A DNA stretch of 64,000 nt, from the IMG/VR virus record IMGVR_UViG_3300042507_006854, positions 64,001 to 128,000 of that record, one strand, 5' to 3'. The position numbers and the translations under genes are program-made. The notes beneath the pieces are model-generated. The model saw only the letters and a list, made by a program, of their open reading frames with translations, did not search any database and was not told where the DNA came from. Below, in pieces: positions 30,830-49,230 of the stretch; position 1 is the stretch's first letter; every line of letters starts with the position of its first letter. This stretch comes from a virus.

Positions 30830-30834
30830 AGTTT

Positions 30835-30900
30835 ACCATCCCCTGTCAGACACTATTCGGCGCTCTCTCTTGGTGAGCGCCTACTTCCGGTCTAACTGGG
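30835..30900 (-). ncRNA. Predicted 66-nt circular RNA exon A
   Basis: Between omega-G (30901) and GGGAUGGU|AAAC, which pairs with the IGS; folds as a rod. Confidence 0.65.
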
Positions 30901-31140
30901 CAACTTATGTTATCGTGCGGGAGTTTACCCCGCACATCTCTACGTCACCGTAGAGTTCAGACTATATCTTGTTTACGTTTGCACGTAAATCAGGGCGCTC
31001 GTGGGAAGATTACTGTCCGTTCTGGACTCGCTTCCTAGTCGTTACACCTTTTTCGTATTCCTACGAAACTTGGCTCGGTATTGTCTTTGCCGCGTTAGCG
31101 GCAAAGAGTTCCACCGAATTCACCCCGAAATGGCCTAAAT
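30901..31140 (-). ncRNA. Group I ribozyme copy A (permuted, IA-like, no ORF)
   Basis: P GAAUUCGGUGGAA, Q AAUACCGAGCCAAG, R GUGUAACGACUA, S AAGAUAUAGUCU; P3, P7, P8, P9 pair; ends AAGUUG. Confidence 0.9.
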
Positions 31141-31185
31141 TTTAAAAGATCGATAATAATATTTACACGTAAATTTATGTTTTTT

Positions 31186-31896
31186 TTAAAAAATATTTAA
31201 ATTTGAAGAGAATGTTTCTTCAACAATTCTTCTTGCTTCTTTATCCTCAGAATCTTTAACAGCGTAAACTAACTTATTATTATAAATACTACATTTATAA
31301 ATAGAATCTCCAGCTAAGTTTTTAATTTCTTTAAAGTTGCCTTTAAAATCAATTAAATATGAACGATAAACGCCATCCAAATCTGAAACAGTTATAATAA
31401 ACCTGTCTTCTTGTTCAAAAACATTTGTTAATCTATAAATAAATTTATATTCAAAAGGTAATTTAAATAGTTCATCGTTAACAATTAATTTATCATGACC
31501 ATGTTTATGATCTATAGAAAACAATTTATTTTGAATCAAGCAAGAGCTAAACGATCTTGTTATTATGTTCATATCTCCAATAATATTTAAATTGGAATCT
31601 ATAGGGATATTAATATAACAATATACAATAGGTGTATTTAAACCTTGATTAAAACCAGCTGTATAGCCAAGATAAAGATTATTATCTTTAATTAAAATAT
31701 GTGGATTACACTCTACGAGAATATCTCCATAAATGCCATATTTCGGGGTATTAATTTCAGATTCAACATTATTCGAATCTTTCTTCCAAATTTTCCACGG
31801 AACGAGTTCGTATTCTCCGCCAAAATTTAATTTAATAGAATTTTCTGCAGAACAATATAGTAAGAAATTAGAAGATAAATAAGGTTGATGTTTCAT
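31186..31896 (-). CDS. Hypothetical protein (beta-rich)
   Basis: 236 aa ORF, last in cassette B. Confidence 0.6.
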   Translation of the reverse strand: MKHQPYLSSNFLLYCSAENSIKLNFGGEYELVPWKIWKKDSNNVESEINTPKYGIYGDILVECNPHILIKDNNLYLGYTAGFNQGLNTPIVYCYINIPIDSNLNIIGDMNIITRSFSSCLIQNKLFSIDHKHGHDKLIVNDELFKLPFEYKFIYRLTNVFEQEDRFIITVSDLDGVYRSYLIDFKGNFKEIKNLAGDSIYKCSIYNNKLVYAVKDSEDKEARRIVEETFSSNLNIF

Positions 31897-31913
31897 TTTT
31901 TTATTAATTTTGT

Positions 31914-32660
31914 TTATTCCAATGAATCTAAAAGAATGTCCAAACTCCGTGAAGATGTAGTTGAAGGGTCATTGCCTCCACAGTTTTTTCTTAGTTCCAT
32001 ATACCCAGGATAAGTATAACCAGGTGGTTTAAATTTATTAGGCGGTTTACAACTATCACCATAATTGACTCCAGCACCCGCTTCTACGAGTGAATAATTA
32101 CAACCACAACCACCGCTACCATTTTGTTGATTTCTTTGAGCTTGTCGCATAGCTCTTTCTAAAGTTGCCACTGGATCCATGTCACCCTCAAGTTGTGCAG
32201 CATCAAAAGCGTCATAGAATTCTTGTTCTCTGTCGGTTGGTCCGCCCGATTCGCAACCTGTTAACGCACTAGCTACGGCGGCAGCGCTCCCTGCACCAGC
32301 TAACCATTTAGCCGTGCGCGCGGGACCACTTTGTTTAAGTTCTTCTGTAGCTTTATCTATCATACTATTACCAATACCATTTGCAATTTTTGACTGTAAT
32401 TCTTGACAAGTGTAATTACTATCCGATCCAGGAAAAAATTTTTCATTACTCTTGCCAGATTTAAGGTTAGTATAAGATTGATGAAATCCTCTACCACCAT
32501 TCGGACCCCAATGAGAAGTTTTCCAAGAGCCACCCAAAACAATGTCATCTGGTGTTGGTAAAGCTCCACAACTATTTAATTTATCTGCCGCAGCTTTTTT
32601 AGCGCAACTTGGGAAAGCAAATCGCATGGCTTTTATAAATTCAATTACAGCTTTTATCAT
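31914..32660 (-). CDS. Hypothetical Ala/Gly/Cys-rich protein
   Basis: 248 aa; internal hydrophobic helix ending LTGC. Confidence 0.65.
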   Translation of the reverse strand: MIKAVIEFIKAMRFAFPSCAKKAAADKLNSCGALPTPDDIVLGGSWKTSHWGPNGGRGFHQSYTNLKSGKSNEKFFPGSDSNYTCQELQSKIANGIGNSMIDKATEELKQSGPARTAKWLAGAGSAAAVASALTGCESGGPTDREQEFYDAFDAAQLEGDMDPVATLERAMRQAQRNQQNGSGGCGCNYSLVEAGAGVNYGDSCKPPNKFKPPGYTYPGYMELRKNCGGNDPSTTSSRSLDILLDSLE

Positions 32661-32662
32661 AT

Positions 32663-33598
32663 TTAAAATCTCCTATAATCGGGTTTGTTTTGAATGTTTG
32701 TAGTATTTGGTTTTAATGGGTTCATATTTAAAACTCTATTACCAAAAACCTCTACATCAAAATATTTTCTAGTTTTTACTTCGACATATGGAAAATGAAT
32801 AAAAATTATAAATTCTAACGGTTTTTGAACAATACTCTTGTCATTATTAAATTCATTTAGTAATGAAGATCTTAAACTTGAAGTTAAATTATTAAAAGTT
32901 GATGAATTCCAACTTTTCGCCGCAATATGTGGAATAATAGATCTTTGTGGTAAATTATTTATTATATTGTAAATAGATTCTATAAAAAGATATGTAATTG
33001 ATCTATTAATAGATGGATCCATTAAAAATTCTATATTAGAATTTACAGGCGTATTTTTTAGAGGGCCATACCACGGATTTGTTCCGGATGGGTTCGCTGT
33101 ATAATATACATCATGATAAAAACTGCCACATTTATTATTAGCAGATAATGAATTAAAAAGTTTTTTATTTTCTAATTCATAATTAATTGTGTTAGCGAAG
33201 ACCTCAAGGCTATCCCTATTAATTATTTGATTTTCTCTATTAATTGGATAATAGAATCCTGATATTAATGATAATTTACTATTTAAATATTTAATTAAAG
33301 GATCAGGATTAGAATTTTCATTATTATTTACCAAGGTCGTGGGATATGGACGACTAACGTCATTAGTAATATCAACTGTTATTAAACGAGATGGATAAAA
33401 ATTAATATCAATATTTGCAATATTTGTTCGAAAACCTTGTTCATGATGAACTATTGTAGACAGTTCTTCAATATTAAGACCTGTTTCAGGAGTTTTATCT
33501 AAAAAAACTACTCGGGCTGCATACCATTGAGGATTCGTTGGGCTGAATTTTTGAGTTAATGGGGTTAATGCAGTATTCATATTTATGTATAGCTCCAA
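32663..33598 (-). CDS. Hypothetical protein
   Basis: 311 aa ORF; start may be a few codons later. Confidence 0.6.
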   Translation of the reverse strand: MELYINMNTALTPLTQKFSPTNPQWYAARVVFLDKTPETGLNIEELSTIVHHEQGFRTNIANIDINFYPSRLITVDITNDVSRPYPTTLVNNNENSNPDPLIKYLNSKLSLISGFYYPINRENQIINRDSLEVFANTINYELENKKLFNSLSANNKCGSFYHDVYYTANPSGTNPWYGPLKNTPVNSNIEFLMDPSINRSITYLFIESIYNIINNLPQRSIIPHIAAKSWNSSTFNNLTSSLRSSLLNEFNNDKSIVQKPLEFIIFIHFPYVEVKTRKYFDVEVFGNRVLNMNPLKPNTTNIQNKPDYRRF

Positions 33599-36327
33599 AC
33601 TTTAAGTGGACCTCCGTTTATAGTCGTCCAGCGGTCTAAAATTGTATAACCATTGCCTAAAATAGGCTCAGATATATAAATATCACTACCCTGACCGCTC
33701 AATTTACAATAAATATCATTATTTGATAATTTAAAGCATCCTCCAGAATTTGGTGGAATATTAGCGATAGAATAATAATTATAATTACCAGGTTTAATTC
33801 CAGTAAAATAATTTTCAAAATATTGTCCTATAAGAAAACTTTTAATTCTACGGTCATTCGCGGTATAATTAACAATTTCTGGCAAAAATTTTCTTATCTT
33901 TGCAATGTAAGAATTTCTTTCAAACTTTCTATATTTTAGTTTATTTTTCCAAAAAGCTTCATTTAAAGAATTAAATGAGATACTATAAAAAGTTTTTTTT
34001 GTATTATATTCTTGTAACATCATTATCATTTTAATATAAACATCTTGTACCGAATTAGATCCATAATAATCATGCACTAATAAAAATTCATTTGTTGTTC
34101 CACATGGATTTTCACTTGTTGATAGGTATTCAATAAATAATTGAGTACCACTTGGTATAATTCCATTCCAAGTTCCGGTATTAAAAGTTTTACCGCCATT
34201 CCCAGTTGTATAAATTCCACTGTATAACTTATAAAACCAAGTATCTTTTATAGGAGTTGTTTGTTTTAAATGGTCACTAATTTTATATAAATCATTATTT
34301 ATTAAATGATATCCAAATATAGATTGATTAGCTTGCTCTGTAATTTGTTGGGTTGTTAAGCCTGGATATAAATTATATAATGCTGGATTTTGGGCAACCC
34401 AATCTTGAGTCACGTATCCACTTTTTGGCCAAAGACCACTACCCGTAGTAGCTGTATTAAGTCTTTCTATATATGGTTTAGAATATAATCCAGAATCTGG
34501 AAATACAAAACCACTATTATTATGAAAAGAGTCTAGGTCATACCCAAGAATTGTAATTCCAGAAACTACTTTTCTATATTCTAAACTTGGGGCCGATAAT
34601 CTTCTTATATAATCTCTTCCGATTAGTATAGTTGTTTCAATTCCGCTATTATGAATTATATTACTCCAATATCTTTGTTGTGTAGTGTTTGTTGTTAATG
34701 CGAATCCAGACCAATTAATTCCGTTAGATGACTTAAAACCGCTAGAAGTTTGTGAATAATTGTCTGGAATAATAGTCCATTCTTTACCATCATGAGTAAT
34801 TCCGGCCCAGCTTGTATTAGCTGGTAAAGTTCCTACAGACCATCCGCTACCATTTGTAGAAGTAAGATATTGATTGCCATATGATGGTATCCCAATAAAT
34901 CTTCCATTTGCAAATTGTATATCTTTAATATAAAGACTTCCTGGAAGTGAGAATTCTTGCCAATTAATCCCATTTAGAGAAATAGCTCCCATAGGAGAAG
35001 AGTAAAATCCGCCACCAGCATTATTAATAGCGACCCATTTACCATCTCCATAAGCTAAAGATCTATAATCTGTTTGGCCAGCAGATGTTGGTAATGCTGC
35101 ATTTCCACTCCAATTTACTCCGTCTGTAGAAGTAATAGTTCTATCAGAACTATCTCTACCTAATATTACCCAACGATTGATACCATTAAAAACAATTTTT
35201 TTGAACTGCGTCATTGGGAAATATTGACCGTTATTACTTCCATTTATATCTATTTCTGACCATGTTTGTCCATTATTAGTGGACGTAGCCCCTTTTGCAA
35301 AAGAAACATTATGAAAGGATGGAAGAGCTATCCAACGACCTGTTCCATAAGCGATATTTGCCCATAGAGCGGTATGAGGTAAAGCTTCAATACGTAATTC
35401 CCAACTTTTTCCATTTTGTGATCTAGCGAGATCTGTTGTGCTACCACCATATTTGTTTGACCCAACTGCAATCCAATAACCACTACCATAATCAGCATCC
35501 ATCCACTGCCCATCAAGCCTTGTTTCAACATCTTTTTGTTGTTTAGACAGCGAAACTTCTATATTCTCTACAATTGTATTAAAAAATTGTTTTTCGGCTT
35601 TGTGTGGGCTAATATAGACTATTTTTTGGTTAGTTGGTGTTCCCGTACTTAAAATTAATAATCCATTCATTGGGGCATTTGGTAAAAATGCATTTCTAAC
35701 TAATTTTGTGGGTATATTATATTTTGGATAAGTTTGTTGGAAAATTGTTTGTGGATATGGTACATAAGCCCCAGAATAAGATACGAAATGATTTTTTTCT
35801 TCTAAAGATTTAATAATCGGGTTATTAATATTAGGAGTTTTATATGTTGTAAAATATCCTGATAATGTATTTGTATTTGATACTTTCCATTCTCTTGGAA
35901 AAGAAAATCTTGCGTAAGATTTAAGAGGGTCTGTATTTCTAACATGTGACGCTGGTAATTTAAGCATCTTGCTATAAAATTTTTGGTCAAAAAAATCTAA
36001 ATGAATTAAATTCATTTTAAAACTTTCTAGCTCCCCATATTTTTTTTCAAAAAATTCTGAAAAAGCTTTATAATAAATATCTGAAGGTAATTTATTATTT
36101 GACCATATAACTTTGCCGTAATACCCAGCACTATTACTATCATTAAAAAATTCTATTTGTTTTTCTGCAACAATCGCATGATTTGGATTTTTTAAAGTTC
36201 CAAAATTTGCGTTTTTTGTAATGAATGACGCCAATGCCGCATTTTTATTAGGAACTAAATTTACGTTTTCAAGTAACGAAAGTGTTCCGCCTAATCCAAG
36301 ATTAGTTGCATCATTATAAATACTCAT
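33583..36327 (-). CDS. Ribozyme-linked large protein, paralog B, with inserted Asp-box-like repeat domain
   Basis: Family motifs plus repeated S.[DN]G..W / AYG.G.W.A units. Confidence 0.78.
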   Translation of the reverse strand: MSIYNDATNLGLGGTLSLLENVNLVPNKNAALASFITKNANFGTLKNPNHAIVAEKQIEFFNDSNSAGYYGKVIWSNNKLPSDIYYKAFSEFFEKKYGELESFKMNLIHLDFFDQKFYSKMLKLPASHVRNTDPLKSYARFSFPREWKVSNTNTLSGYFTTYKTPNINNPIIKSLEEKNHFVSYSGAYVPYPQTIFQQTYPKYNIPTKLVRNAFLPNAPMNGLLILSTGTPTNQKIVYISPHKAEKQFFNTIVENIEVSLSKQQKDVETRLDGQWMDADYGSGYWIAVGSNKYGGSTTDLARSQNGKSWELRIEALPHTALWANIAYGTGRWIALPSFHNVSFAKGATSTNNGQTWSEIDINGSNNGQYFPMTQFKKIVFNGINRWVILGRDSSDRTITSTDGVNWSGNAALPTSAGQTDYRSLAYGDGKWVAINNAGGGFYSSPMGAISLNGINWQEFSLPGSLYIKDIQFANGRFIGIPSYGNQYLTSTNGSGWSVGTLPANTSWAGITHDGKEWTIIPDNYSQTSSGFKSSNGINWSGFALTTNTTQQRYWSNIIHNSGIETTILIGRDYIRRLSAPSLEYRKVVSGITILGYDLDSFHNNSGFVFPDSGLYSKPYIERLNTATTGSGLWPKSGYVTQDWVAQNPALYNLYPGLTTQQITEQANQSIFGYHLINNDLYKISDHLKQTTPIKDTWFYKLYSGIYTTGNGGKTFNTGTWNGIIPSGTQLFIEYLSTSENPCGTTNEFLLVHDYYGSNSVQDVYIKMIMMLQEYNTKKTFYSISFNSLNEAFWKNKLKYRKFERNSYIAKIRKFLPEIVNYTANDRRIKSFLIGQYFENYFTGIKPGNYNYYSIANIPPNSGGCFKLSNNDIYCKLSGQGSDIYISEPILGNGYTILDRWTTINGGPLKVWSYT

Positions 36328-36335
36328 AAGTTTTT

Positions 36336-36401
36336 AACCAACAGAAGAATTTTTTTTCATACCGGGATTCAATCCGGCCGAAATGATTTACTTCCACTTA
36401 T
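36336..36401 (-). ncRNA. Predicted 66-nt circular RNA exon B
   Basis: Between omega-G (36402) and UGGUU|AAAAA pairing with IGS GACC. Confidence 0.6.
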
Positions 36402-36640
36402 CAACGTGTTATCGTGCGGGAGTTTACCCCGCACATCTCTACGTCACCGTAGAGTTCAGACTATATCTTGTTTACGTTTGCACGTAAATCAGGGCGCTCG
36501 TGGGAAGATTACTGTCCGTTCTGGACTCGCTTCCTAGTCGTTACACCTTTTTCGTATTCCTACGAAACTTGGCTCGGTATTGTCTTTGCCGCGTTAGCGG
36601 CAAAGAGTTCCACCGAATTCACCCCGAAAGGTCATATTAA
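36402..36640 (-). ncRNA. Group I ribozyme copy B (permuted)
   Basis: Core 36407-36629 reads identical to 30908-31130; ends CACGUUG. Confidence 0.9.
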
Positions 36641-36643
36641 TAT

Positions 36644-36667
36644 TTTAAAGAACAGTAATAATTACAC
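36644..36667 (-). promoter_or_regulatory. GTGTAA promoter motif plus boxA-like GTTCTTTAAA ahead of ribozyme B (equivalents at 31141-31168, 40519-40542, 48799-48823)
   Basis: Same arrangement before all four ribozymes; the boxA-like motif also precedes the tmRNA, tRNA-Val and the 58.5 kb RNA. Confidence 0.65.
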
Positions 36668-36700
36668 TTAAATATTTGAAATGTAGATTTTTTTATAAAA

Positions 36701-37468
36701 TTATCTTTTATATTGACTTGGAACTGGGAAATTATTACATTTTTTGGGTTCTATATCATTATTATTTAATAGTCTATAACTTTGTAGATTTACTTTATTT
36801 TTTGATTTAAATTTAATTATAGGAGAGGTAAAAACAATATCTAGATTTAAGGCATGAGGAACAATAGTCCCACGATTTCCAGTTTTTGATTCTAATTCTA
36901 TTTGTTTTTGCTCGGTTGGTATACTTCCCATTGCGTAACCATAACAATCAAAATAATCTTTTTCCGGATTAGTAGCGTCAGTCCATTGGTTGTTTATATT
37001 TTTATATCTAATTAAACCAAGATTTAATTCAAGATCTTCTTTTTTATATTCATTATTCAAGTATTTATTTAATAAAGATGAGAATTGCTTTGAAGAACGA
37101 ATATCTTGATTATTTTCAGTATAATTGCTTCCTAAAGATTTAAACTCTAACGAAAATTCTTGAAAGTCTGGTTGTGGTCCTTCCCATTTTGGGCTTTTAG
37201 GGCCGATTCTTGGAATAAAATTTGTATAGGGTTTTGTTGAGAAATTTCCAGGTTTTAAAATTTTCTTATAGTGTTGAGAGCGTACTATTTTTTGATTATA
37301 ATTTTCAACAATTACCGATTCAGAATCTTGTGTTAAGATGTTAGTAATATTTATAAATACTTGATCTGGCGGAGCCACCGAAGTCGTTTCTAAATTAATC
37401 CGTTTTCCGCCCAGAGAAATAGAAGTTCTTACACCATGTTTAAAATTTGTTGTGTCGATATTAATCAT
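36701..37468 (-). CDS. Hypothetical protein
   Basis: 255 aa ORF, cassette C. Confidence 0.6.
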   Translation of the reverse strand: MINIDTTNFKHGVRTSISLGGKRINLETTSVAPPDQVFINITNILTQDSESVIVENYNQKIVRSQHYKKILKPGNFSTKPYTNFIPRIGPKSPKWEGPQPDFQEFSLEFKSLGSNYTENNQDIRSSKQFSSLLNKYLNNEYKKEDLELNLGLIRYKNINNQWTDATNPEKDYFDCYGYAMGSIPTEQKQIELESKTGNRGTIVPHALNLDIVFTSPIIKFKSKNKVNLQSYRLLNNNDIEPKKCNNFPVPSQYKR

Positions 37469-37481
37469 AAATTTTATTTTT

Positions 37482-38336
37482 CTAACCTATTACTGGCCAT
37501 AGTTGTGCCCCTCCGTTCTGTGAAGAATTTTGTGCTTCTCCGTCTATTTCATCTGAACAGCTATCGCCCCCATCGTCTGTTTCGTCTAAATCTTCCTCTT
37601 TTTCATCTTCTTCTTCTTCGTTTTCGTCGTCATCGTCTTTATCGGGCGGATAATCTTTATTACGTTTTCTATTCTTATCGGGTCTTTTATCTCTACATCC
37701 TGGACAATTTGGATCATTATTACTTATTACCGTATCATCGGGATTTAGTAATTCATTTGCCAAAGCGCCTACCGCTCCTGCAGCGAGAGTCGCGGCGGCT
37801 CCAACTCCTTGAGGACTACTGAGAGCGCCATCTATCGCAGCTTTTGTAGCCGCTTTAGCTTCTGCATTTAAAGCTGTTTGCTCCATTTTTGCTAAGCCAT
37901 GAGCATGCTCTCTTATAAAATTTTCTTTACGTACAGTTTGATTTAACAGGTCAGATTTTCTCACCTCGTTAAAATTTTCCATTAGAGATTTAGCGCTTGT
38001 ATCTCCACGCCAAGCTGCTTGTTTAGACGCTTTATCCCATAAGCTTGCTGGAGAGGATGGTTTGAGAATGTTGTCTCTTAAATAACCTTGCATTTCGGGC
38101 CTATTAAGTTGTGCCCTTGCAGCTTGAGTTATTCCATCTCGACCAGTATTATTTACGATAGTATTACTAACTTCACCGATTTTATATCCAGGTTTACCAA
38201 CACCAGCCTTTAATCCTTGAGAAATACCTCTTGATGTTGACCACGATTTACTTACAGCCTTTGCTGCTGCAGCCACTGCAGCGCTTTGTGTCGCAGCTCT
38301 TGCGGCGAGTCCACCTAATAGTAAAGGAAATCCCAT
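37482..38336 (-). CDS. Ala-rich protein with acidic C-terminal tract
   Basis: Hydrophobic Ala/Gly helices, CPGC, poly-D/E. Confidence 0.65.
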   Translation of the reverse strand: MGFPLLLGGLAARAATQSAAVAAAAKAVSKSWSTSRGISQGLKAGVGKPGYKIGEVSNTIVNNTGRDGITQAARAQLNRPEMQGYLRDNILKPSSPASLWDKASKQAAWRGDTSAKSLMENFNEVRKSDLLNQTVRKENFIREHAHGLAKMEQTALNAEAKAATKAAIDGALSSPQGVGAAATLAAGAVGALANELLNPDDTVISNNDPNCPGCRDKRPDKNRKRNKDYPPDKDDDDENEEEEDEKEEDLDETDDGGDSCSDEIDGEAQNSSQNGGAQLWPVIG

Positions 38337-40201
38337 TAGCTACCTCCCCCCGCTGCCGATGGAGCTAATTTAAAATTTGAATGTCTACGAGAAAACGTAT
38401 TTAAAGAAGGATAAGCTTTCAATCTTTTTCTATTAAAAAAGGTAAGAGATCTTTTCATGCGATTTGTTTGTGTCATAAGTAGTGGGAATTTATTTATTAT
38501 ATTTTTTACATATAAATTTCTTTTATATACCTCAAATTTTTGAAAATTTTTCCAAAAACCGTCCTCCATAGAATTAAAAGATATAGAGGTAAATTCTTTA
38601 GAAATACTAGTATCAAATAATAAAGATAATCCCATTGATTTTTTAATGGACACATCTATCAAAGAATTATCTCCATAATTAGAATGAACTAGCAAAAAGT
38701 CTGCATTTGTACCGCATGGTTCTTCGTTAGTGCTAAGATATTCCATAAAAACAGTTGTTCCGCTAGGTATAATTCCATTCCAAGTACCCAAATTAAATGT
38801 TTTATTTCCGGTATATAAGCCACTATATAATTTGTAAAATAAAGTATTTTGAATCGGAATTTCTTGTTTTAAGAAATTATTTACTTTATAGACATTACAA
38901 TCTAATAACATTGATACAAAATAATTTAAATTCGCCTGTTGTAAATTATCTAAACCAGAAATAAAAGAAATATTATCTGGAGCTGGCGCGCTTCCGCTTA
39001 TAAATGAATTCATAGTATTAAGATATGTTAACATTTCATTCGTAATTAATCCGGAAATAGGCCAGGTGCTCATAATACCTGTATCTCCTAAATTAGCTAA
39101 TTCCGTGGGACTTTTAGAAATCAAACCTGTTGGAAATACAAAACCATTATTTACATATATTGAATTTACGTCTATCCCAGGAACCGAAATACCATATGAT
39201 GTTTTAACATAATTTAAAATTCCTGTATAACCAGTAAATGAACATGATCTAGGATCACTTGGATTAATATATTTTTTACATCTGAAGTTATTAAATGGTT
39301 TAAAATTTTGAACACTCGTTTCGAAAGTTTCTACTACTGTATTAAAAACTCTTGTGGATCCGCTATGTGGTGAAATATACACAATTTTCTGAGAATAATG
39401 ATTACCAGTAGAAATTAGTAAAATACCATTAAGATTACTATTTGCAGAAATAGAATTTTGAGTAATTACGGTGTCAATATTTAATCTTGGTAATTGATGC
39501 AAGTAAATTGATTGTGGATAGATTACATATCCAGAATAATCTTTATTATAAATAAAATTATTAATGTTATTTATAGCATTTAATGTTGCTAAATTTCCAG
39601 TAACAAAAGATCTTCTTAAATTTCCAGTTAATTGTTCAAAATTATAAACATTTGGAGAATCGATATAATCAATAATTCCGGTCGATAAGCCAGAATTAAA
39701 AAAACCAGTTACTGGAACTGATTTAATACCAGATAAAATTTTTGTATTGTGGACGCCCCAATCTTTTGGAAATGAAAATCTTACATAATCTAATAGAGGA
39801 TGGGTATCTTCATTATTAAAGTTTTTGTTTATTCTTATAAAATTAAAAAATCCTTGATCAAGAGTATCTCTTTGAATAGGTGGAGTATCGATACTATACA
39901 ATTCACCATAAAAAGTATGAGAATATTTTGAAATAGTTTTAAAATAATCTTTAACATTTAAAGGATGTTCGGTCCAAACGATTTTGCTATGATAAGCTTT
40001 TAAATTCTCATCTATAGAATTATCAATTTCTTTTTGTAGTACAAGCGCAGTGTTAGGGACTCTTAAAGTACCAAGGTTATCGATAGAAATAATATAACCA
40101 TTTAATTTTGTGTTGAGAGAAGGGGTTAGATCAACGTTCTCTAACAAATTAATAGGCCCTCCAAACCCAATTTTACTAGCATCGGAAATTAGTTGTTGCA
40201 T
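38336..40201 (-). CDS. Ribozyme-linked large protein, paralog C
   Basis: NLGTLR, KIVYISPH, FYKLYSG, TFNLGTWNGIIPSG. Confidence 0.75.
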   Translation of the reverse strand: MQQLISDASKIGFGGPINLLENVDLTPSLNTKLNGYIISIDNLGTLRVPNTALVLQKEIDNSIDENLKAYHSKIVWTEHPLNVKDYFKTISKYSHTFYGELYSIDTPPIQRDTLDQGFFNFIRINKNFNNEDTHPLLDYVRFSFPKDWGVHNTKILSGIKSVPVTGFFNSGLSTGIIDYIDSPNVYNFEQLTGNLRRSFVTGNLATLNAINNINNFIYNKDYSGYVIYPQSIYLHQLPRLNIDTVITQNSISANSNLNGILLISTGNHYSQKIVYISPHSGSTRVFNTVVETFETSVQNFKPFNNFRCKKYINPSDPRSCSFTGYTGILNYVKTSYGISVPGIDVNSIYVNNGFVFPTGLISKSPTELANLGDTGIMSTWPISGLITNEMLTYLNTMNSFISGSAPAPDNISFISGLDNLQQANLNYFVSMLLDCNVYKVNNFLKQEIPIQNTLFYKLYSGLYTGNKTFNLGTWNGIIPSGTTVFMEYLSTNEEPCGTNADFLLVHSNYGDNSLIDVSIKKSMGLSLLFDTSISKEFTSISFNSMEDGFWKNFQKFEVYKRNLYVKNIINKFPLLMTQTNRMKRSLTFFNRKRLKAYPSLNTFSRRHSNFKLAPSAAGGGS

Positions 40202-40209
40202 ATTTTTTT

Positions 40210-40280
40210 AACCAATGAATAGATTACCTGGAGCTCTAGCTTTTCTGGGTGCCGGAGCTTTATTCTTTCTATACAATTAT
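40210..40280 (-). ncRNA. Predicted 71-nt circular RNA exon C
   Basis: Between omega-G (40281) and UGGUU|AAAAA pairing with IGS GACC. Confidence 0.6.
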
Positions 40281-40515
40281 CAACGTGTTATCGTGCGGGA
40301 GTTTACCCCGCACATCTCTACGTCACCGTAGAGTTCAGACTATATCTTGTTTACGCTTGCGCGTAAATCAGGGCGCTCGTGGACAGTTTATTGTTTTGTG
40401 CTACTCACTGTCTAGTCGTTGCACCTTCTACTTACTATTGCACTTCAGTAGCTTGGCTCAAGATTGTCTTCTTAAAAAGAGTTTCCTTGAATTCACCCCG
40501 AAAGGTCATATTTAA
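40281..40515 (-). ncRNA. Group I ribozyme copy C (permuted)
   Basis: P/Q/R/S conserved; compensatory changes in P4 (UUCAAG/CUUGAG) and P8. Confidence 0.9.
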
Positions 40516-40593
40516 ATTTTTAAAGAACATCCTTTATTACACATTTTTAAATAAAAACCTTGTTTTTTTTAAAAAAAACTTTATAATTCTTTT

Positions 40594-41625: not shown

Positions 41626-41858
41626 TAAAAAAATAATTCTTTATTAAAAGCCCAGCCAGTTAATACCAATAGCCCCATTTGTAAAAATGATGCCCAACAG
41701 AATGGTGGTTCTAATTTTATACCAAATCCTAAACGTATAAAAATTAAACAAGCGGCTACAGCAAATAATGTTATTGAAACTATCAACATTAAATTGACTA
41801 CTTTTTTGATGATTTTCTTAGTTTGGGTTTTCATTTCGCCTAGATTCCAGAATAGCAA
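41622..41858 (-). CDS. Small two-TM membrane protein
   Basis: Two hydrophobic helices. Confidence 0.5.
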   Translation of the reverse strand: MLFWNLGEMKTQTKKIIKKVVNLMLIVSITLFAVAACLIFIRLGFGIKLEPPFCWASFLQMGLLVLTGWAFNKELFFY

Positions 41859-42156: not shown

Positions 42157-42190
42157 GGTAAAAACGTATGATATTATATATTACACATAA

Positions 42191-42850: not shown

Positions 42851-42883
42851 ATTTTAATTCATTTAATTATAATATATTCAACA

Positions 42884-43507: not shown

Positions 43508-44089
43508 TTAGGGCAAACTAATTTTAACTAAGGCGTATCCGTTTTCGTCTTTACGGCTTAAGAATTTTCCGATAACAACGATTCCGTCTGTAGCTATACG
43601 ACCATTCGATCCAACGTAAGCTGCATCTCCGATATCAGGAGCACCTCCGCCGCCACCACGATTGGTTTCATCAATATCATTGATAAGAATAAGACCTCTT
43701 GTTAATACTGGAACTGCTTGAATATCTTTAATAATAACATCCATTTCAGCAGCTTTACGAGAATTAAAGATTAATTTTTCGCCATTTTCATCAAATTCAC
43801 GAATATCTTTAAGTAGAACACCTATTGCTGTTGGTACATCATCATGATTAACAACAGGTTCCACTTGACCAACTAATTCAAAATTTTGCGTTACAGTATT
43901 TGTATATACAGCGCCAGGAGCGGAAGATCCTAAGTCCAAAGGCCCTGCAGTTCTTTTATCAGAAGCTCCAGTTGATTTCCAGCTTCTTTTTGGCTTAACA
44001 AGAGTTCCTTTATTTGCAATAGCTGTGCAAGCAAAAAAGTTTAAAACTTCATGTTCACTATAATCTCTAAATGGAAGTAAGTTTGGCAT
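43508..44089 (-). CDS. Putative head decoration/structural protein
   Basis: Late-type GTGTAA motif; beta-rich, GVLLKD..VPVLTRG. Confidence 0.5.
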   Translation of the reverse strand: MPNLLPFRDYSEHEVLNFFACTAIANKGTLVKPKRSWKSTGASDKRTAGPLDLGSSAPGAVYTNTVTQNFELVGQVEPVVNHDDVPTAIGVLLKDIREFDENGEKLIFNSRKAAEMDVIIKDIQAVPVLTRGLILINDIDETNRGGGGGAPDIGDAAYVGSNGRIATDGIVVIGKFLSRKDENGYALVKISLP

Positions 44090-44206
44090 ATATTGATATT
44101 ACACTCAAAAAATAGATTATCTACTTTTTTTTAAATTAAATTATTTAATTTATTTACATTACACTTTTTTTTATATTTAAATAGATTATTTATATAATTT
44201 ATAACA

Positions 44207-44689
44207 ATGGATTTACAACAAATTTTAAATATACAAGAATTAGAAGGGTTACATCTCGATGTAATGTTTGGAGCAGTACCTAAACGTTTAATAGGAGATG
44301 TTTCTAAAAAATTTAATAAACGTAAAACAAAAAATTTATTTTATATAATATTCGGAGTTTATTTAAAGGAATCTAAACAATATATTGTATTTACGAGCGT
44401 ATTTAAATCTTCTAGAAAAAAAATAGAAAATCAATGGTTTTCAGAAGTAATGGTTGATTCAGCAGTATTTGAAGACAAACAGAAAGTTCTAGATTATTTA
44501 TATGATTTTATGGATAATTTTGAAGAGCACGAAAGGATTATTAATGAAGAAATTATGAGTATGGGTATGATGCCAGCCATAGAAGCTTTTCGATATTTAC
44601 TCATATGGAATAGAGGAATTTTCGATTATTTCAATATTTTTATTGAAAGCGAGAATAAAAAACGATTTAAATTTTTAAAATTGTTTTAA
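44207..44689 (+). CDS. Hypothetical protein
   Basis: 160 aa ORF. Confidence 0.55.
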   Translation: MDLQQILNIQELEGLHLDVMFGAVPKRLIGDVSKKFNKRKTKNLFYIIFGVYLKESKQYIVFTSVFKSSRKKIENQWFSEVMVDSAVFEDKQKVLDYLYDFMDNFEEHERIINEEIMSMGMMPAIEAFRYLLIWNRGIFDYFNIFIESENKKRFKFLKLF

Positions 44690-44721
44690 CAACCGCTCAT
44701 AATAATATTATTATACTAAAT

Positions 44722-44925
44722 TTAACGACAAGACGAAGAAGATGAAGAATAACCGTCATGGCCAGGCCTTCCATAAAAAGGACAACTTGGCCCACATTGA
44801 TGAATACTTGGAGGAGATTGGGGTGGACTAATAGGCCCTAGACTAGGGGCTCCTGGAATTCCACATGGATCAGGCGGTATGCAATTATTAATGGTTGAAC
44901 CTGCAGATGATGTTGAAACGCTCAT
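44722..44925 (-). CDS. Small Pro/Ser/Cys-rich protein
   Basis: Start reassigned to MSVSTSSAGSTINNCIPP, paralogous to next ORF. Confidence 0.6.
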   Translation of the reverse strand: MSVSTSSAGSTINNCIPPDPCGIPGAPSLGPISPPQSPPSIHQCGPSCPFYGRPGHDGYSSSSSSCR

Positions 44926-44930
44926 AATAT

Positions 44931-45146
44931 TTATTTTAAAGTTTTTGTAGGTGATGGAGTTGGTGGTTGAGGACCCTGTGGTGGCATACCAGGGTAAGGA
45001 TAAAAAGAATCTCCAGGGTTCATTGATGGGGGCCACTCTGTACACTGCCCTTGACCTGGATAATCAGGTCCAGTACAAGAAGATGAACTTGCTGGAGGAA
45101 TACAATTATTTATTGTACCCCCAGCTGATGATGAAGCGGCACTCAT
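44931..45146 (-). CDS. Small Pro/Ser/Cys-rich protein
   Basis: MSAASSSAGGTINNCIPP; GTGTAA 10 nt upstream. Confidence 0.65.
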   Translation of the reverse strand: MSAASSSAGGTINNCIPPASSSSCTGPDYPGQGQCTEWPPSMNPGDSFYPYPGMPPQGPQPPTPSPTKTLK

Positions 45147-45204
45147 AATAATATTATTACACTTTTTTAAAAAAAATTGACTTATTTAAATTAAATGCTA
45201 TAAT

Positions 45205-45429
45205 ATGTTTATGTATTGGCCATCTATGCAAGTATTAAAAAGCAGCGATCTTTGGAAAAAGCTCGATAAAAAAATGAAATGGACTTTTATGGGTATGTGG
45301 ACTGTTGAGGATTCACAAGTTCATTCTGATAACCCAGAATATAAATTAGAGCCAAATATGGCTTATATTAACAAAAGAAAATCAGGTTTTAAACCTCGCC
45401 CGAAACGAGAAGAAGAATTTGATGATTAA
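45205..45429 (+). CDS. Hypothetical protein
   Basis: TTGACT-TATAAT promoter directly upstream. Confidence 0.55.
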   Translation: MFMYWPSMQVLKSSDLWKKLDKKMKWTFMGMWTVEDSQVHSDNPEYKLEPNMAYINKRKSGFKPRPKREEEFDD

Positions 45430-45764
45430 TTTTGATAAGTAATATAAGCAAATACTGGAGCACTACCATTAGTTGCTACCAGTCTTATATTGGCAATAGG
45501 AGAATCAAAGAAAATAGGGTCTCCATATCCAGCGCCAACTCCCGTAGCTGTATAAAAAGAAAGTGCATTTGCTACCCCACCTTCTAAAAACATAGGGTGT
45601 TGAGTTAATTCTGTTTTAGCTTGTAAATTAATATCTACACTAGAACCGCTAGCATAAATAACTACAAAACCATTTTTACATAAAGCTGTGTTAACCCATC
45701 GTCCAGTAAATGGGGCAGATTGTCCGGTTGCTAAAAATTCGGTCTTAATAAGAGAAGGGTTCAT
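45426..45764 (-). CDS. Putative small virion protein
   Basis: Beta-rich; GTGTAA 9 nt upstream. Confidence 0.5.
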   Translation of the reverse strand: MNPSLIKTEFLATGQSAPFTGRWVNTALCKNGFVVIYASGSSVDINLQAKTELTQHPMFLEGGVANALSFYTATGVGAGYGDPIFFDSPIANIRLVATNGSAPVFAYITYQN

Positions 45765-45821
45765 TATTCATAATTACACATAAAATAGATAGTTTTTGTT
45801 TTAAAATTTAAAATAATACAA

Positions 45822-46229
45822 ATGAATAGACAAAAAACAATATGCTTTTTACGCCAAATCTGTTTGCAATATGAAGTTAAAGTTAGATTTCGTACCCGTT
45901 TTGATAAAGAATTAGACGGAGAAGCAGATACTGAAAAAGAAATAATTTATATAGATAAAAAATTACCACGTAGAGCCATGGCTGAAGCGGTATTTCATGA
46001 ATTGGGTCATATTTATTGTGTCCGAAAAGGTATTTGGAATAAATTCCATAAAGAGCATGATTATTCCGCAATCAAATCATTCAAAGCAGAGAATTGGATT
46101 GAACACTGGGCCAAACGCGAATGGGATGCGTGGGGTATGAGAAAAATATTTGGACAGTATCGATTTGTTTATTTAAAAAGCGAAAAGAAAAAATTAGTAA
46201 AATGGTTTGAAAAAAAATTCAACTTATAA
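45822..46229 (+). CDS. ImmA/IrrE-like HExxH protein
   Basis: FHELGH..E. Confidence 0.6.
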   Translation: MNRQKTICFLRQICLQYEVKVRFRTRFDKELDGEADTEKEIIYIDKKLPRRAMAEAVFHELGHIYCVRKGIWNKFHKEHDYSAIKSFKAENWIEHWAKREWDAWGMRKIFGQYRFVYLKSEKKKLVKWFEKKFNL

Positions 46230-46234
46230 ACTTA

Positions 46235-48334
46235 TCATAGGGGTGGATCAATACAAACCCCGATACCCCCAGATAGAGTAAAACATCCAAAAACTCCAGG
46301 AGGAATATCTGATATTGTTGCATAATCATAAGGCAATACTTTTTTCCATTCTACTTTTTGTCCGGAGATAAAAGTATCTTCGATCAAATTATTATTTGTT
46401 AATCTAAAACCGGCACGAGTTGATATACCGGTTGGAAGTCCAGGGCGATTTCTGAGAGGAATGCCAGCATATCCTGTATAAGAACATGACATTGGGTCAG
46501 AAGGGTTAATATAGGTCTTACAGTATCTACCCACACCGTCTTTTGGATTATTTTTAACAAGATCTAAACGGCCCATCAAATCAATCATTTTTCTTACTTT
46601 TGCATTACCTTTTGTAATTCCTCTTGACCATAAATAACCATATAATCGAGATTTCGCTTGTTTACTTGCTTTTCTACTGGCTAAATAAGATGCTTCATAT
46701 TGATTATTTGCACTAGCAGTAACTTTATATCCATAAAATATACCTGAACCTAATAAACCACTAGGGTTTTCGGAATATTGATAAATTCCGCTCCCACTTT
46801 CAGAAGAAAGGATGAAAGCATTAGAGATATATACATTTAAATTTGGGGTCGTAATTTCTGAATTTTTCAATCTGACCGTTTCAATAGAAAAAGGTGTTCC
46901 GCTTGGAATTATTCCATTCCAAGTGCCAGTGTTAAAAGTATTTTTTCTATATACTGGCTCATACAATTTATAGAACAATGTGTCCTTTAAAGGAATTTGT
47001 TGTTTTAATCGTGCCGCATCAAAATTGTAAAAACGTTTAGAAGAACCACTTGTTATCTTAGTGATATAATTTAAGCCAGTATAATTATAATCAAAACTGG
47101 AGACGCTTGTTAAATTTCCACTTTGTAATAAATAGACATCTCTTGAATTAATTATTCTACCATTACTTCCAGTAATTGGAATACGGCTTGAAGAAGATAA
47201 TTCGGCCCAAAATCCGGCGAAATTTTCAATAGCGTGAGGACTTACGTAAACAATTTTTTTAGATGATATCCCAGTACTTACAATGATTATGTCACTAATT
47301 TTATTTCCATTATTTTCAAAAGTAATAACACTATTATATCTTAATGCTGGGTAGCTTTGAATATTATAGGAATGGGGATATGTTATCCAGTTATTATTAG
47401 CTGGAAGATTTCCACTTGTATTCCCTACAACACCATTCACAGATGAATAAATTTTATTTTTACCGTTAGAAATTCTTGTCGTTGCTAATTTAAAAAATCC
47501 TTCTAATTCAATTTCTTCTGAAACAGGTAAAGGATTTGATCCACTTGTGGAGCTTGAACCTGTAATTTGCCAATTATTTCCCGTAGGCAAAGTATTATTT
47601 CCAAGAAGAACATACAAAGGACGAAAATTTAATCTCCATTGATCTCTTTGTCTTAAAACCCATCCACTTTGCGTAGGTACAGATATAAAACCAGATATTC
47701 CAGATACAAAATTATTATTTTGAAACCAAATCATATCAACTGGTATAGAATTAGAAGAATTTACATATCTTGTTTTATTATTTATAACCCCATTTGGAAC
47801 AAAAATTCCATTAATTGGGAGGGAGGACTGACTTACTATAATATTTTGACTTTTTGTAAAACCGGAAGACAATGCGAAAAATTTTTGCTGTTCTCCTTGC
47901 GAAATTCCAGTCACGCCACTTTGAATAGTTATAGAAGTAACTCTTGAAGATAAACGGTTAAAACTTGCAAAAAGTGGATCATAAGGATTATTTTGATCGA
48001 TTGATGAATTGCTTTGATATGTTAAGACTTGACCATTTAAAACAATTTCGCTAAGAGTTTCTTGAAAATAATATTGTGGTGCAGATTCGTTTTTTATTTC
48101 AATTGGATAGTAACCTTGCGTCTCATTATCAAAAATGACCAATTTCTCAATCGGTTTTCTCAAAGTTCCAACGTTAATAGTTTTTAAATCTATTTTAGAA
48201 TAACTATTAAAATCTTTTATCGTCTTATTTAGACTGATTGGGGTAGAAGTTGAAATTTTTTGCTCAGACTTGCGAATGTCTACTAGATAATCTTTTTTAG
48301 ATAATCCTAATTTTTTCCTTTTAAAGTTATTCAT
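46235..48334 (-). CDS. Ribozyme-linked large protein, paralog D
   Basis: NVGTLR, KIVYVSPH, LKQQIPLKDTLFYKLY, TFNTGTWNGIIPSG, GCF..CIDPP. Confidence 0.75.
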   Translation of the reverse strand: MNNFKRKKLGLSKKDYLVDIRKSEQKISTSTPISLNKTIKDFNSYSKIDLKTINVGTLRKPIEKLVIFDNETQGYYPIEIKNESAPQYYFQETLSEIVLNGQVLTYQSNSSIDQNNPYDPLFASFNRLSSRVTSITIQSGVTGISQGEQQKFFALSSGFTKSQNIIVSQSSLPINGIFVPNGVINNKTRYVNSSNSIPVDMIWFQNNNFVSGISGFISVPTQSGWVLRQRDQWRLNFRPLYVLLGNNTLPTGNNWQITGSSSTSGSNPLPVSEEIELEGFFKLATTRISNGKNKIYSSVNGVVGNTSGNLPANNNWITYPHSYNIQSYPALRYNSVITFENNGNKISDIIIVSTGISSKKIVYVSPHAIENFAGFWAELSSSSRIPITGSNGRIINSRDVYLLQSGNLTSVSSFDYNYTGLNYITKITSGSSKRFYNFDAARLKQQIPLKDTLFYKLYEPVYRKNTFNTGTWNGIIPSGTPFSIETVRLKNSEITTPNLNVYISNAFILSSESGSGIYQYSENPSGLLGSGIFYGYKVTASANNQYEASYLASRKASKQAKSRLYGYLWSRGITKGNAKVRKMIDLMGRLDLVKNNPKDGVGRYCKTYINPSDPMSCSYTGYAGIPLRNRPGLPTGISTRAGFRLTNNNLIEDTFISGQKVEWKKVLPYDYATISDIPPGVFGCFTLSGGIGVCIDPPL

Positions 48335-48373
48335 AATAGTATCACTATAATATTAATAAATTATTATATGTTT

Positions 48374-48565
48374 ATCCGCCATCCAGATGTCAGTTACTAG
48401 CCCGAGTAATTCTCCGACCATGAAGAATTTTCCCAGTTGGGTCCGAATCTGGTAGGTCATTACAGCATTGCCATTGTGAATTGATTCACCATGCTCAATC
48501 CGCTATATTTATAGCTCTAATTTAAAGCGATAAAGGTAGCGGATTGAGAATACAACGTGTCTCAT
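48374..48565 (-). ncRNA. Predicted structured circular RNA exon D (192 nt; 179 nt if omega-G is 48553)
   Basis: Ends AUGGCGGAU|AAAC, pairing 9 bp with IGS GUCCGUUAU; multiple internal helices. Confidence 0.62.
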
Positions 48566-48793
48566 CATTGTGTTATCGTATAAGTGTTTATCTTATACAT
48601 CTTTGCGTCACCGCAAAGTTCAGACTATATCTTCTTTTCTTTTGAAAAGTTCGGGCGCTCTTGGGCTATTTTATTGTTGGGACTCAACAGCCTAGTCGTT
48701 ACACCTTCCATCCTATCTTTCCCAGATGGCTTGGCTCGGGATTGTCTTTTTATAAAGAGTTCCCCCGAATTCACCCGATAACGGACATTTTTT
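48566..48793 (-). ncRNA. Group I ribozyme copy D (permuted, most diverged)
   Basis: GAAUUCGGGGGAA, AAUCCCGAGCCAAG, GUGUAACGACUA, AAGAUAUAGUCU. Confidence 0.9.
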
Positions 48794-48867
48794 TAAATTT
48801 TAAAGAACTATTTATTTTTACACAAAATAATATTGAATACCCCAAAAAAATTTATTATCATAATAAT

Positions 48868-49213: not shown

Positions 49214-49230
49214 GTTCTTTAAAATTTTAT

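What the first reader, a model, noticed from the sequence alone, without database searches (positions are those of the whole stretch)
30830..48823. Four naturally permuted group I ribozymes predicted to make small circular RNAs
Seen: four minus-strand group I cores (30901-31140, 36402-36640, 40281-40515, 48566-48793) with P/Q/R/S elements and no ORF. Each begins about 30 nt after a GTGTAA/boxA promoter, so there is no upstream exon and no gene is interrupted. The guide just 5' of P3 instead pairs with a site DOWNSTREAM of the omega-G, ending in the canonical U.G pair followed by AAA. A: IGS GCCAUUUC (31134-31127) with GGGAUGGU|AAAC (cut after 30835). B and C: GACC with GGUU|AAAAA (36336, 40210). 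D: GUCCGUUAU (48786-48778) with AUGGCGGAU|AAAC (48374). Guide and target change together across copies. Established: with the 5' splice site 3' of the 3' splice site, group I chemistry ligates the intervening exon into a circle, the basis of engineered permuted/self-targeting circularisation. Inference: this phage encodes a natural version yielding 66, 66, 71 and 192 (or 179) nt circles. I know of natural permuted group II introns but not of this group I arrangement. Pairing in B and C is short (4 bp core).
Basis: partly seen in the sequence, partly recalled or inferred. Interest (0 to 1): 0.97.

Follow-up and report, generated by a model that had tools for sequence, protein, structure and literature searches.

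The report
Ribozyme-first (permuted) group I elements in phage
Four genes of this uncultured phage are each preceded by a complete self-splicing-type (group I) RNA enzyme whose cutting site lies behind it, just before the start codon. It should therefore cut the message free with a very short leader and probably close a small spacer RNA of about 65 bases into a ring, a layout I found described only for engineered RNAs and one coral mitochondrial intron.

Summary
Observation confirmed, interpretation supported by sequence comparison. No RNA data could be obtained.

- **The cores are real.** All four minus-strand elements are group I cores. Rfam RF00028 scores 68-82 bits for B, C and D, and A's core is 221/221 identical to B's. 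They sit in intergenic DNA with no P1/P2 upstream.
- **A wider family exists.** I found 27 such elements (24 non-redundant) in related phage contigs. Core helices are 94.6% paired, and 31 of 53 pairs show compensatory change.
- **The guide pairs downstream.**
  - A guide at a fixed place before P3 always pairs with a site within 45 nt 5' of the start codon.
  - The terminal pair is U.G in 24/24, and the next pair takes all four Watson-Crick forms.
  - Permutation gave 0/20000.
- **3' splice-site features are kept.** The terminal G is kept where conventional relatives have their 3' splice site. A short P10 (mean 2.5 bp against 1.67 permuted, p = 2e-4) aligns the spacer's start next to P1.
- **Geometry.** Spacers are 60-71 nt in 21 of 24 elements. 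Cuts fall 2-13 nt before the start codon in 21 of 24.
- **Context.** Other genes of this phage start 8-13 nt after the same GTGTAA motif. Every member of one orphan protein family (12/12) is ribozyme-headed.

This scan's own unchecked notes report similar ribozymes in other phage genomes.

The parts
31163..31168 (-). A: GTGTAA promoter-like motif
   Evidence: The same hexamer lies 8-13 nt 5' of the first ATG of 11 long ORFs, against a mean of 0.4 for permuted hexamers.
31140..31151 (-). A: conserved 5' leader box (GAUCUUUUAAAA; (A)GUUCUUUAAAA in the other copies). Role unknown.
   Evidence: Nearly invariant in 26 aligned elements. Absent from the other GTGTAA sites.
31129..31134 (-). A: internal guide GCCAUU
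   Evidence: Pairs with GAUGGU at 30840-30835.
30901..31128 (-). A: group I core, P3 to the terminal G (30901)
   Evidence: 221/221 identical to B's core. Core covariation shown.
30835..30900 (-). A: 66-nt spacer, the predicted circle. It ends in the 5' splice-site U at 30835.
   Evidence: The closing stem is conserved in orthologs.
29210..30829 (-). A: headed gene, 539 aa, orphan family. ATG lies 5 nt after the cut.
36662..36667 (-). B: GTGTAA motif
36643..36653 (-). B: leader box GUUCUUUAAAA
36630..36633 (-). B: guide GACC
   Evidence: Pairs with GGUU at 36339-36336.
36402..36627 (-). B: group I core, P3 to the terminal G (36402)
   Evidence: RF00028 68.3 bits.
36336..36401 (-). B: 66-nt spacer, the predicted circle. 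U|AAAAA cut after 36336.
33583..36327 (-). B: headed gene, 914 aa. ATG lies 8 nt after the cut.
40537..40542 (-). C: GTGTAA motif
40517..40528 (-). C: leader box GUUCUUUAAAAA
40504..40507 (-). C: guide GACC
   Evidence: Pairs with GGUU at 40213-40210.
40281..40501 (-). C: group I core, P3 to the terminal G (40281)
   Evidence: RF00028 81.6 bits.
40210..40280 (-). C: 71-nt spacer, the predicted circle
38336..40201 (-). C: headed gene, 621 aa. ATG lies 8 nt after the cut.
48818..48823 (-). D: GTGTAA motif
48798..48809 (-). D: leader box AGUUCUUUAAAA
48778..48786 (-). D: guide GUCCGUUA(U)
   Evidence: Pairs with (A)UGGCGGAU at 48382-48374. The same pair occurs in ortholog L007.
48566..48778 (-). 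D: group I core, P3 to the terminal G (48566 by family consensus)
   Evidence: RF00028 76.0 bits.
48374..48565 (-). D: 192-nt spacer, the predicted circle
46235..48334 (-). D: headed gene, 699 aa. ATG lies 39 nt after the cut.

Best explanation
Each element is a complete group I ribozyme encoded 'ribozyme first'. This equals a circular permutation opened in the P1 loop.

**Layout of the RNA**
- The RNA most likely starts about 9 nt after a GTGTAA promoter-like motif (inferred).
- It begins with a conserved (A)GUUCUUUAAAA leader of unknown role.
- A 4-9 nt guide follows, 6 nt before P3.
- Then comes a compact IA-like core: P3-P9.1 with a P7.1 hairpin and no P2, ending in a conserved terminal G.
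- The other strand of P1 lies 60-192 nt further 3'. It ends in a U that forms the U.G pair, followed by AAA, a few nt before the start codon of an orphan protein gene.

**Predicted reaction (inferred from established group I chemistry)**
1. Free guanosine or GTP attacks after that U. This releases the mRNA with one added G and a leader of only about 3-14 nt, like the near-leaderless messages this phage makes directly from GTGTAA sites.
2. The new 3'-OH of the spacer, held on the guide next to a 2-8 bp P10, attacks after the terminal G. This closes the spacer into a circle of about 65 nt (192 nt in D) and frees the linear ribozyme.

**What is shown:** the core, its covariation, the downstream P1, the conserved terminal G and P10, and the strict link to one gene family. 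**What is inferred:** transcription start, catalysis, the circle, and what the phage gains from it.
For: - **Core.** Rfam hits. 94.6% of cells paired; 31 of 53 pairs with compensatory change; 0/500 shuffles reach this; P7 is invariant.
- **P1.**
  - Positions 0-3 are paired in 24/24 elements.
  - Position 0 is always U.G.
  - Position 1 is U:A 7, A:U 6, C:G 9, G:C 2.
  - The fixed-position guide finds its site in 24/24; null product 5e-10; permutation 0/20000.
  - Orthologs of A changed guide and target together.
  - The A and B cores are 221/221 identical while their guides differ and still match their own targets.
- **3' splice site.** UG| sits at GAUAACA+5..8 in all elements. In the conventional relatives L035 and L093 the SU10 capsid reading frame opens straight after that G.
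- **P10.** Pair +1/-1 in 22/24 and +2/-2 in 20/24. Mean length 2.5 bp against 1.67 when permuted, p = 2e-4. It reaches 8 bp in L070, 5 bp in L073 and 4 bp in L007.
- **No upstream partner** for the guide.
- **Spacers** are structured (mean z = -2.1), their ends pair, and 21/24 are 60-71 nt.
- **Cut to ATG** is 2-13 nt in 21/24.
- **GTGTAA** lies 8-13 nt before 11 ORF starts, against 0.4 expected.
- **Gene link.** 12 of 12 family genes in 8 genomes are ribozyme-headed.
- **Engineered analogue.** Ribozyme-first Tetrahymena constructs circularise with P1 alone (PMC10457212).
Against:
- The P1 core is only 4 bp in B, C and most relatives.
- P10 is short and AU-rich, so its support is modest.
- In A's orthologs the spacer's first bases (GUCC) equal the guide and can sequester the target. 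Cutting may therefore be regulated or inefficient.
- D, L007 and L045 have long spacers, and D and L045 cut 29-39 nt from the ATG. The 'short leader' reading does not fit those two.
- The conserved leader box has no assigned role.
- Transcription start is inferred from motif spacing only.
Confidence: 0.7

Rival explanations
1. Cleavage-only device. The ribozyme serves to cut the 5' region off and give the mRNA a short, G-started leader. The second step does not occur to any useful extent, or 3' splice-site hydrolysis replaces it, so no functional circle exists.
For: - The cut position tracks the start codon: 2-13 nt in 21/24.
- The phage's other genes are near-leaderless.
- Spacer sequences are poorly conserved between paralogs.
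- There is a strict link to one gene family.
Against: - The terminal G, the UG| context and P10 are conserved although step 1 does not need them.
- Spacer length is tightly held at 60-71 nt with paired ends. A mere linker would not need this.
- The L019-type tandem elements sit at the end of an operon with no gene to release.
Confidence: 0.2
2. Inactive relic or purely structural/regulatory 5' UTR. The guide-target helix merely masks the translation start region, and the group I fold is a decayed intron.
For: The helix lies next to the start codon. Some spacers can sequester the target.
Against: - 31 compensatory pairs, an invariant P7 and invariant J8/7.
- An invariant U.G, rather than any Watson-Crick pair, at the cut site in 24/24.
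- The cores still reach Rfam's curated threshold.
Confidence: 0.05
3. Conventional intron. Transcripts start far upstream, or a separate RNA supplies the 5' exon (trans-splicing), and the spacer plus gene is the 3' exon.
For: A and B have same-strand genes upstream. C has a chance AAGGUU 50 nt upstream.
Against: - No consistent upstream complement exists.
- C and D abut divergent genes or tRNAs.
- No P1/P2 hairpins of the kind conventional relatives have.
- The invariant leader cannot covary with the varying guides.
- The cognate site is always downstream in cis.
Confidence: 0.03
4. Trans-acting ribozyme. The guide targets other phage or host RNAs, and the cis site is incidental or a decoy.
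For: Four-base guides would match many RNAs.
Against: The cis site is retained through guide changes and sits at a fixed place before the start codon.
Confidence: 0.02

Closest known systems
[quoted passage not shown]
   Same: The order is guide - core - terminal G - insert - target U. P1 alone suffices. The products are a circular insert plus a released 3' tail.
   Different: - These elements are natural, compact (about 225 nt) and IA-like.
- The released 3' tail is a protein-coding mRNA.
- The insert is a 60-71 nt non-coding hairpin.
- PIE constructs are opened in a peripheral loop, not in the P1 loop.
ND5-717 group I intron of corallimorpharian mitochondria (Chi et al. 2019, PMC6545197)
   Same: A natural group I ribozyme on a permuted precursor that back-splices and gives a circular exon RNA.
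   Different: - It is opened in P8 by an ~18-kb insertion in a circular genome.
- It joins two coding exons of ND5.
- It is eukaryotic and organellar.
- Here nothing coding is joined, and the break is in the P1 loop.
Conventional ORF-less phage group I introns of the same sequence family (for example in SU10-type capsid genes, loci L035 and L093)
   Same: The same core motifs: GGGUGAAUUC, AAGGUGNAACGACUAG, AAGAUAUAGUCUGAAC and GAUAACA-N-UG|. The same U|AAC context at the 5' splice site.
   Different: They have P1 and a P2 hairpin upstream, interrupt a reading frame about 6 codons in, and restore it by splicing.
Allosteric c-di-GMP-II/group I ribozyme in a Clostridioides difficile 5' UTR (reviewed in PMC3984707)
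   Same: A group I ribozyme domesticated in a 5' UTR, where the site of GTP attack decides what lies before the start codon.
   Different: That one has the conventional order, with an upstream aptamer and two exons. No aptamer is found here.
Lariat-capping (GIR1) ribozyme
   Same: A group I-derived ribozyme placed directly 5' of an mRNA, whose reaction defines the mRNA's 5' end.
   Different: GIR1 has no P1 or guide and works by branching. Here P1 with U.G, a canonical P7 and a terminal G are kept. No other Rfam family, which includes any GIR1 model it holds, matched this region at E <= 1.
Natural circularly permuted group II introns (Roth et al. 2021, PMC8637638)
   Same: Free-standing permuted self-splicing ribozymes in prokaryotes that yield small RNA circles.
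   Different: A different ribozyme class and chemistry. Those are never found next to an ORF, whereas these always head a gene.

Membership tests
Group I ribozyme (Rfam RF00028) | Conserved P3-P8 core with P4-P6 and P3-P9 domains and the P3/P7 pseudoknot | tested here: met
   68-82 bits for B, C and D, and 71-101 bits in relatives. 94.6% of cells paired, 31/53 compensatory pairs.
Group I ribozyme (Rfam RF00028) | Guanosine-binding P7 with flanking J6/7 and J8/7 consensus | tested here: inconclusive
   P7 GACUA/UAGUC and AAGAUAUAGUC are invariant in 26/26 and match the Rfam consensus. Binding itself is not testable here.
Group I ribozyme (Rfam RF00028) | P1 between an internal guide and the 5' splice site, ending in U.G | tested here: met
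   24/24 with U.G and covariation at positions 1-3. The target strand lies 3' of the core, not 5'.
Group I ribozyme (Rfam RF00028) | Terminal G at the 3' splice site | tested here: met
   UG| sits at the same place as in conventional relatives.
Group I intron in the strict sense | Interrupts a gene and restores it by exon ligation | tested here: not met
   The elements are intergenic. No upstream exon partner exists, and the downstream ORF starts after the cut.
Group I intron in the strict sense | Self-splicing activity | not testable with these tools
   Needs in vitro transcription or RNA reads.
Permuted intron-exon / back-splicing group I | 3' splice site upstream of the 5' splice site on one transcript | tested here: met
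   The terminal G lies 60-192 nt 5' of the U|AAA site in all 24 elements.
Permuted intron-exon / back-splicing group I | Both insert ends aligned on the guide (P1 plus P10) | tested here: met
   P10 mean 2.5 bp against 1.67 permuted, p = 2e-4; up to 8 bp. Short in most elements.
Permuted intron-exon / back-splicing group I | Circular product with the predicted junction | not testable with these tools
   No RNA data.
Lariat-capping ribozyme (GIR1) | No P1 or guide, a remodelled core, and the branching triad | tested here: not met
   P1 with U.G and a canonical P7 are present. No Rfam family other than RF00028, tRNA and a weak U6 match was found in 28000-50000 at E <= 1.
c-di-GMP-dependent allosteric group I ribozyme | c-di-GMP-II aptamer directly 5' of the ribozyme | tested here: not met
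   No riboswitch hit. Only about 30 nt of leader precede the guide.

The most novel reading that the evidence does not exclude
A lineage of large aquatic phages has turned a capsid-gene intron into a gene-expression device. A ribozyme-first group I element manufactures near-leaderless mRNAs whose 5' end is a GTP-derived G, coupling expression of one virion or host-interaction protein family to the GTP/Mg state. At the same time it releases a size-constrained circular RNA of about 65 nt that has a function of its own, for example as a stable decoy against host nucleases or defence systems.
Probability: 0.25. Interest if true: 0.95.

Novelty: new variant of a known kind. Interest (0 to 1): 0.86.

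Why it matters
- **New biology.** It would be the first described bacterial or phage case of a naturally permuted group I ribozyme. It would also be the first in which the permutation is used to make an mRNA 5' end instead of mending a gene.
- **A ready experimental system.** There are 24 natural variants with covarying 4-9 nt guides, compact cores of about 225 nt from cold-water phages, and defined predicted junctions.
- **Questions it makes testable.**
  - How little P1/P10 is needed for circularisation.
  - Whether phages make functional circular RNAs.
  - How leaderless-type translation is fed by RNA processing.
- **Practical use.** Natural ribozyme-first scaffolds are directly relevant to circular-RNA manufacture, where only Tetrahymena, Anabaena, T4 td and a few other introns are in use.

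Tried and rejected
- **Collection scans.** Two of three IMG/VR pattern scans gave almost only chance matches: GTTCNT..GGGTGAATTC and ATTTTGGGTGAATTC. RF00028 searches of related records missed several copies that nhmmer found (against 37).
- **Partner for the conserved leader box.**
  - Complement in the spacers: only C has one.
  - J7/9 GAAC: no covariation in A, L007 or L040.
  - P5 GAACU: not conserved.
  - L9.1 UAAAC: four AU pairs only.
  - The leader as the 5' exon of a local P1: rejected, because the box is invariant while the guides vary.
  - Conclusion: the box is left unexplained.
- **A possible extra helix** between the guide-P3 linker and the bases before the terminal G (CAUUUU/AAAAUG, CGUUAU/AUGAUG) holds in only about half of the elements, so it is not claimed.
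- **In-frame stop.** The idea that the U|AA always forms an in-frame stop before the ATG does not fit the spread of cut-to-ATG distances.
- **Function of the headed protein family.**
  - No Pfam or PHROG hit.
  - All 24 homologues are unnamed or called hypothetical.
  - No PDB sequence match.
  - Atlas gave only a 0.85 lead to baseplate-like clusters.
  - The AlphaFold model (pLDDT 69, mostly beta) has no convincing Foldseek match (TM <= 0.1) or VIA match (Z <= 6 over about 60 residues).
- **L064**, which looked like an intermediate, heads an unrelated gene.
- **Literature.** Searches for a natural permuted group I in bacteria or phages found none. The library does not hold most subscription-journal papers.


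Full report
**1. What is there**

The window is bases 64001-128000 of a 146.9-kb IMG/VR phage record (32.6% G+C, CheckV 78% complete). Rfam RF00028 matches three of the four stated places above its curated threshold: C 81.6 bits and D 76.0 bits, and B 68.3 bits. A was missed by the filters, but it is 221/221 identical to B from P3 to the GAUAACA motif. A profile built from the four copies finds exactly these four in the whole record.

All four lie on the minus strand in intergenic DNA. Each sits between a GTGTAA motif and the ATG of a gene of 539, 914, 621 or 699 codons. Among the copies, P4, P8, P9 and P9.1 differ by compensatory changes.

**2. A family, and its conventional cousins**

A core pattern scan of IMG/VR returned 117 loci. 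They fall into two groups.

- **Conventional introns.** Most have a P1 and a P2 hairpin upstream and lie in reading frames. L035 and L093, for example, interrupt SU10-type major capsid genes about 6 codons in.
- **Ribozyme-first elements.** A minority share the window's layout: GTGTAA, a conserved (A)GUUCUUUAAAA box, a short guide, then P3 directly.

Adding whole related records and contigs that encode homologues of the headed protein gave 27 such elements, 24 of them non-redundant.

On an alignment of 26 elements, the nine core helices are 94.6% paired. Of 53 pairs, 31 show changes on both sides. None of 500 shuffles reaches the observed values, and sliding the partners drops pairing to 38-47%. 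P7 is invariant. These are ribozymes under selection, not relics.

**3. P1 is made with a downstream site**

I read the guide at a fixed distance from P3, so the choice does not depend on the target.

- Its first four bases have a complementary site within 45 nt 5' of the start codon in all 27 elements, always followed by AA or UAA.
- Per-element null probabilities (all 64 G-started 4-mers) multiply to 5e-10 over 24 clusters.
- Shuffling guides among elements never reached 24 hits in 20000 trials; the mean was 11.9 and the maximum 20.
- The pair at the cut is U.G in 24/24.
- The next pair is U:A 7, A:U 6, C:G 9, G:C 2.
- Positions 2 and 3 are paired in 24/24.

Orthologous loci changed both sides together. 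A has GCCAUU/GAUGGU, while L345, L342, L343 and L347 have GUCC/GGAU at the same gene. A and B share an identical core but keep different guides that match their own targets.

Upstream sequence holds no consistent partner. The invariant leader cannot be the partner of a varying guide.

**4. Features needed for the second step are kept**

- **Terminal G.** All elements end the core with GAUAACA, then 3-6 nt, then UG. Conventional relatives have the same ending, and in L035 and L093 the capsid reading frame opens at the very next base. So this G is the homologue of the 3' splice-site G.
- **P10.** The first bases after it (mostly AU or GU) pair with the bases just 5' of the guide's G: +1/-1 in 22/24 and +2/-2 in 20/24. 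Mean P10 is 2.5 bp against 1.67 for non-cognate combinations (p = 2e-4). It reaches 8 bp in L070, 5 bp in L073 and 4 bp in L007, where D's ortholog changed both strands.
- **Consequence.** Both ends of the spacer can be lined up on one guide. That is the geometry for exon ligation, and here it closes a circle.
- **Spacers.** They are 60-71 nt in 21 of 24 elements (140, 140 and 192 nt in the rest). They are more stable than shuffles (mean z = -2.1) and have paired ends. The closing stem is kept in A's orthologs.

**5. Relation to the message**

The cut lies 2-13 nt before the start codon in 21 of 24 elements: 5, 8, 8 and 39 nt in A-D.

In this phage GTGTAA sits 8-13 nt before the first ATG of 11 long ORFs, against a mean of 0.4 for permuted hexamers. 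It therefore behaves as a promoter or -10-like element that yields almost leaderless messages. Cleavage would give the ribozyme-headed genes a similar short, G-started leader.

All headed genes belong to one orphan protein family. In eight genomes, all 12 family genes are ribozyme-headed and none lacks a ribozyme. The family's function stays unknown.

**6. Mechanism, shown and inferred**

- **Shown:** the architecture, its conservation and its covariation.
- **Inferred from established group I chemistry:**
  - Guanosine attack at U|AAA.
  - Release of the G-tagged mRNA.
  - Attack of the spacer's 3'-OH after the terminal G, producing a circle plus the free ribozyme.
- **Engineered precedent:** the ribozyme-first design with the Tetrahymena ribozyme shows this order works, and that P1 alone suffices (PMC10457212).
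- **Open:** what the phage gains. The options are a short leader for translation, a timing or GTP gate, or a functional circle or free ribozyme.

**7. Comparison with what is known**

[quoted passage not shown] That case is opened in P8 and joins coding exons.

I found no paper on a bacterial or phage case. Within group I, this is a new variant. The break is in the P1 loop, nothing coding is joined, and the released 'intron tail' is the mRNA.

Earlier unchecked notes of this scan describe similar ribozyme-first elements in other phage genomes. These are leads, not evidence.

**8. Verdict**

| Claim | Confidence |
|---|---|
| The downstream-P1 architecture is real and selected | about 0.9 |
| It cleaves | about 0.75 |
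| Circles form | about 0.55-0.6 |

The overall confidence in the stated mechanism is 0.7.

Noticed in passing
window 57498-57949 (-); 49131-49549 and 58830-63845 (+): The phage encodes a tmRNA (RF00023, 141.5 bits) and 11 tRNA genes in two clusters. The first cluster directly abuts element D's promoter region.
   Followed up: no
whole record G000, e.g. window 60991, 57073, 45779, 44104, 28894, 25451: GTGTAA lies 8-13 nt 5' of many start codons (11 long ORFs against 0.4 expected). This suggests a phage promoter that yields leaderless or near-leaderless mRNAs.
   Followed up: partly
window 30901-31128 vs 36402-36627: The A and B cores are 221/221 identical, although their leaders and guides (19/34 identical) and their proteins (about 30% identical) differ. 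B's ortholog in L342 carries a core closer to C's (200/216). Cores seem to be exchanged by gene conversion while guides are kept.
   Followed up: partly
window 31140-31151, 36643-36653, 40517-40528, 48798-48809: A conserved 5' leader box, (A)GUUCUUUAAAA, occurs only at ribozyme-headed GTGTAA sites. It would be the first bases of the RNA. No pairing partner or role was found.
   Followed up: partly
L019:8216-8711 (-) and six near-identical loci: Two group I ribozymes in tandem (100.9 and 86.2 bits) sit after a 228-codon ORF and face a convergent 583-codon gene. Both guides (GCCCAU, GCCCGU) match one downstream site, GUGGGU|AAC, and no gene follows.
   Followed up: partly
L242:1518-1798 (+); G006:C1:12374-12537 (+): More divergent ribozyme-first elements head genes unrelated to the main family. 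L242 has guide GCCUU with AAGGU|AAAC 11 nt before its ATG. The G006 copy has a mismatched P1 and lies far from its ORF.
   Followed up: partly
L345:9921-10004, L342:9921-10004, L343:9921-10004 (orthologs of A): The spacer begins with GUCC, the same bases as the guide. It can pair with the target GGGGGAU in the spacer's closing stem. This is a possible competing fold that hides the cut site.
   Followed up: partly
L035:472-693 (+), L093:1088-1307 (-): The closest conventional relatives are ORF-less introns about 6 codons into SU10-type major capsid genes (Pfam PF17236, E 1e-43 to 1e-45). This suggests a possible origin for the ribozyme-first form.
   Followed up: partly
L064:9878-10091 (-): This conventional-looking relative forms P1 with an upstream UUGCCU. 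Its 5' exon contains GUUCUUU, the same heptamer as the leader box, and a GTGTAA lies 24 nt before its ATG. Its downstream gene is unrelated to the family.
   Followed up: partly
window 28898-40201 (-): Each ribozyme-headed gene opens a small operon of orphan genes: C with 284 and 255 aa; B with 311, 248 and 236 aa; A with 103 aa. The 236-aa protein has a weak DUF5050 (beta-propeller) match.
   Followed up: no
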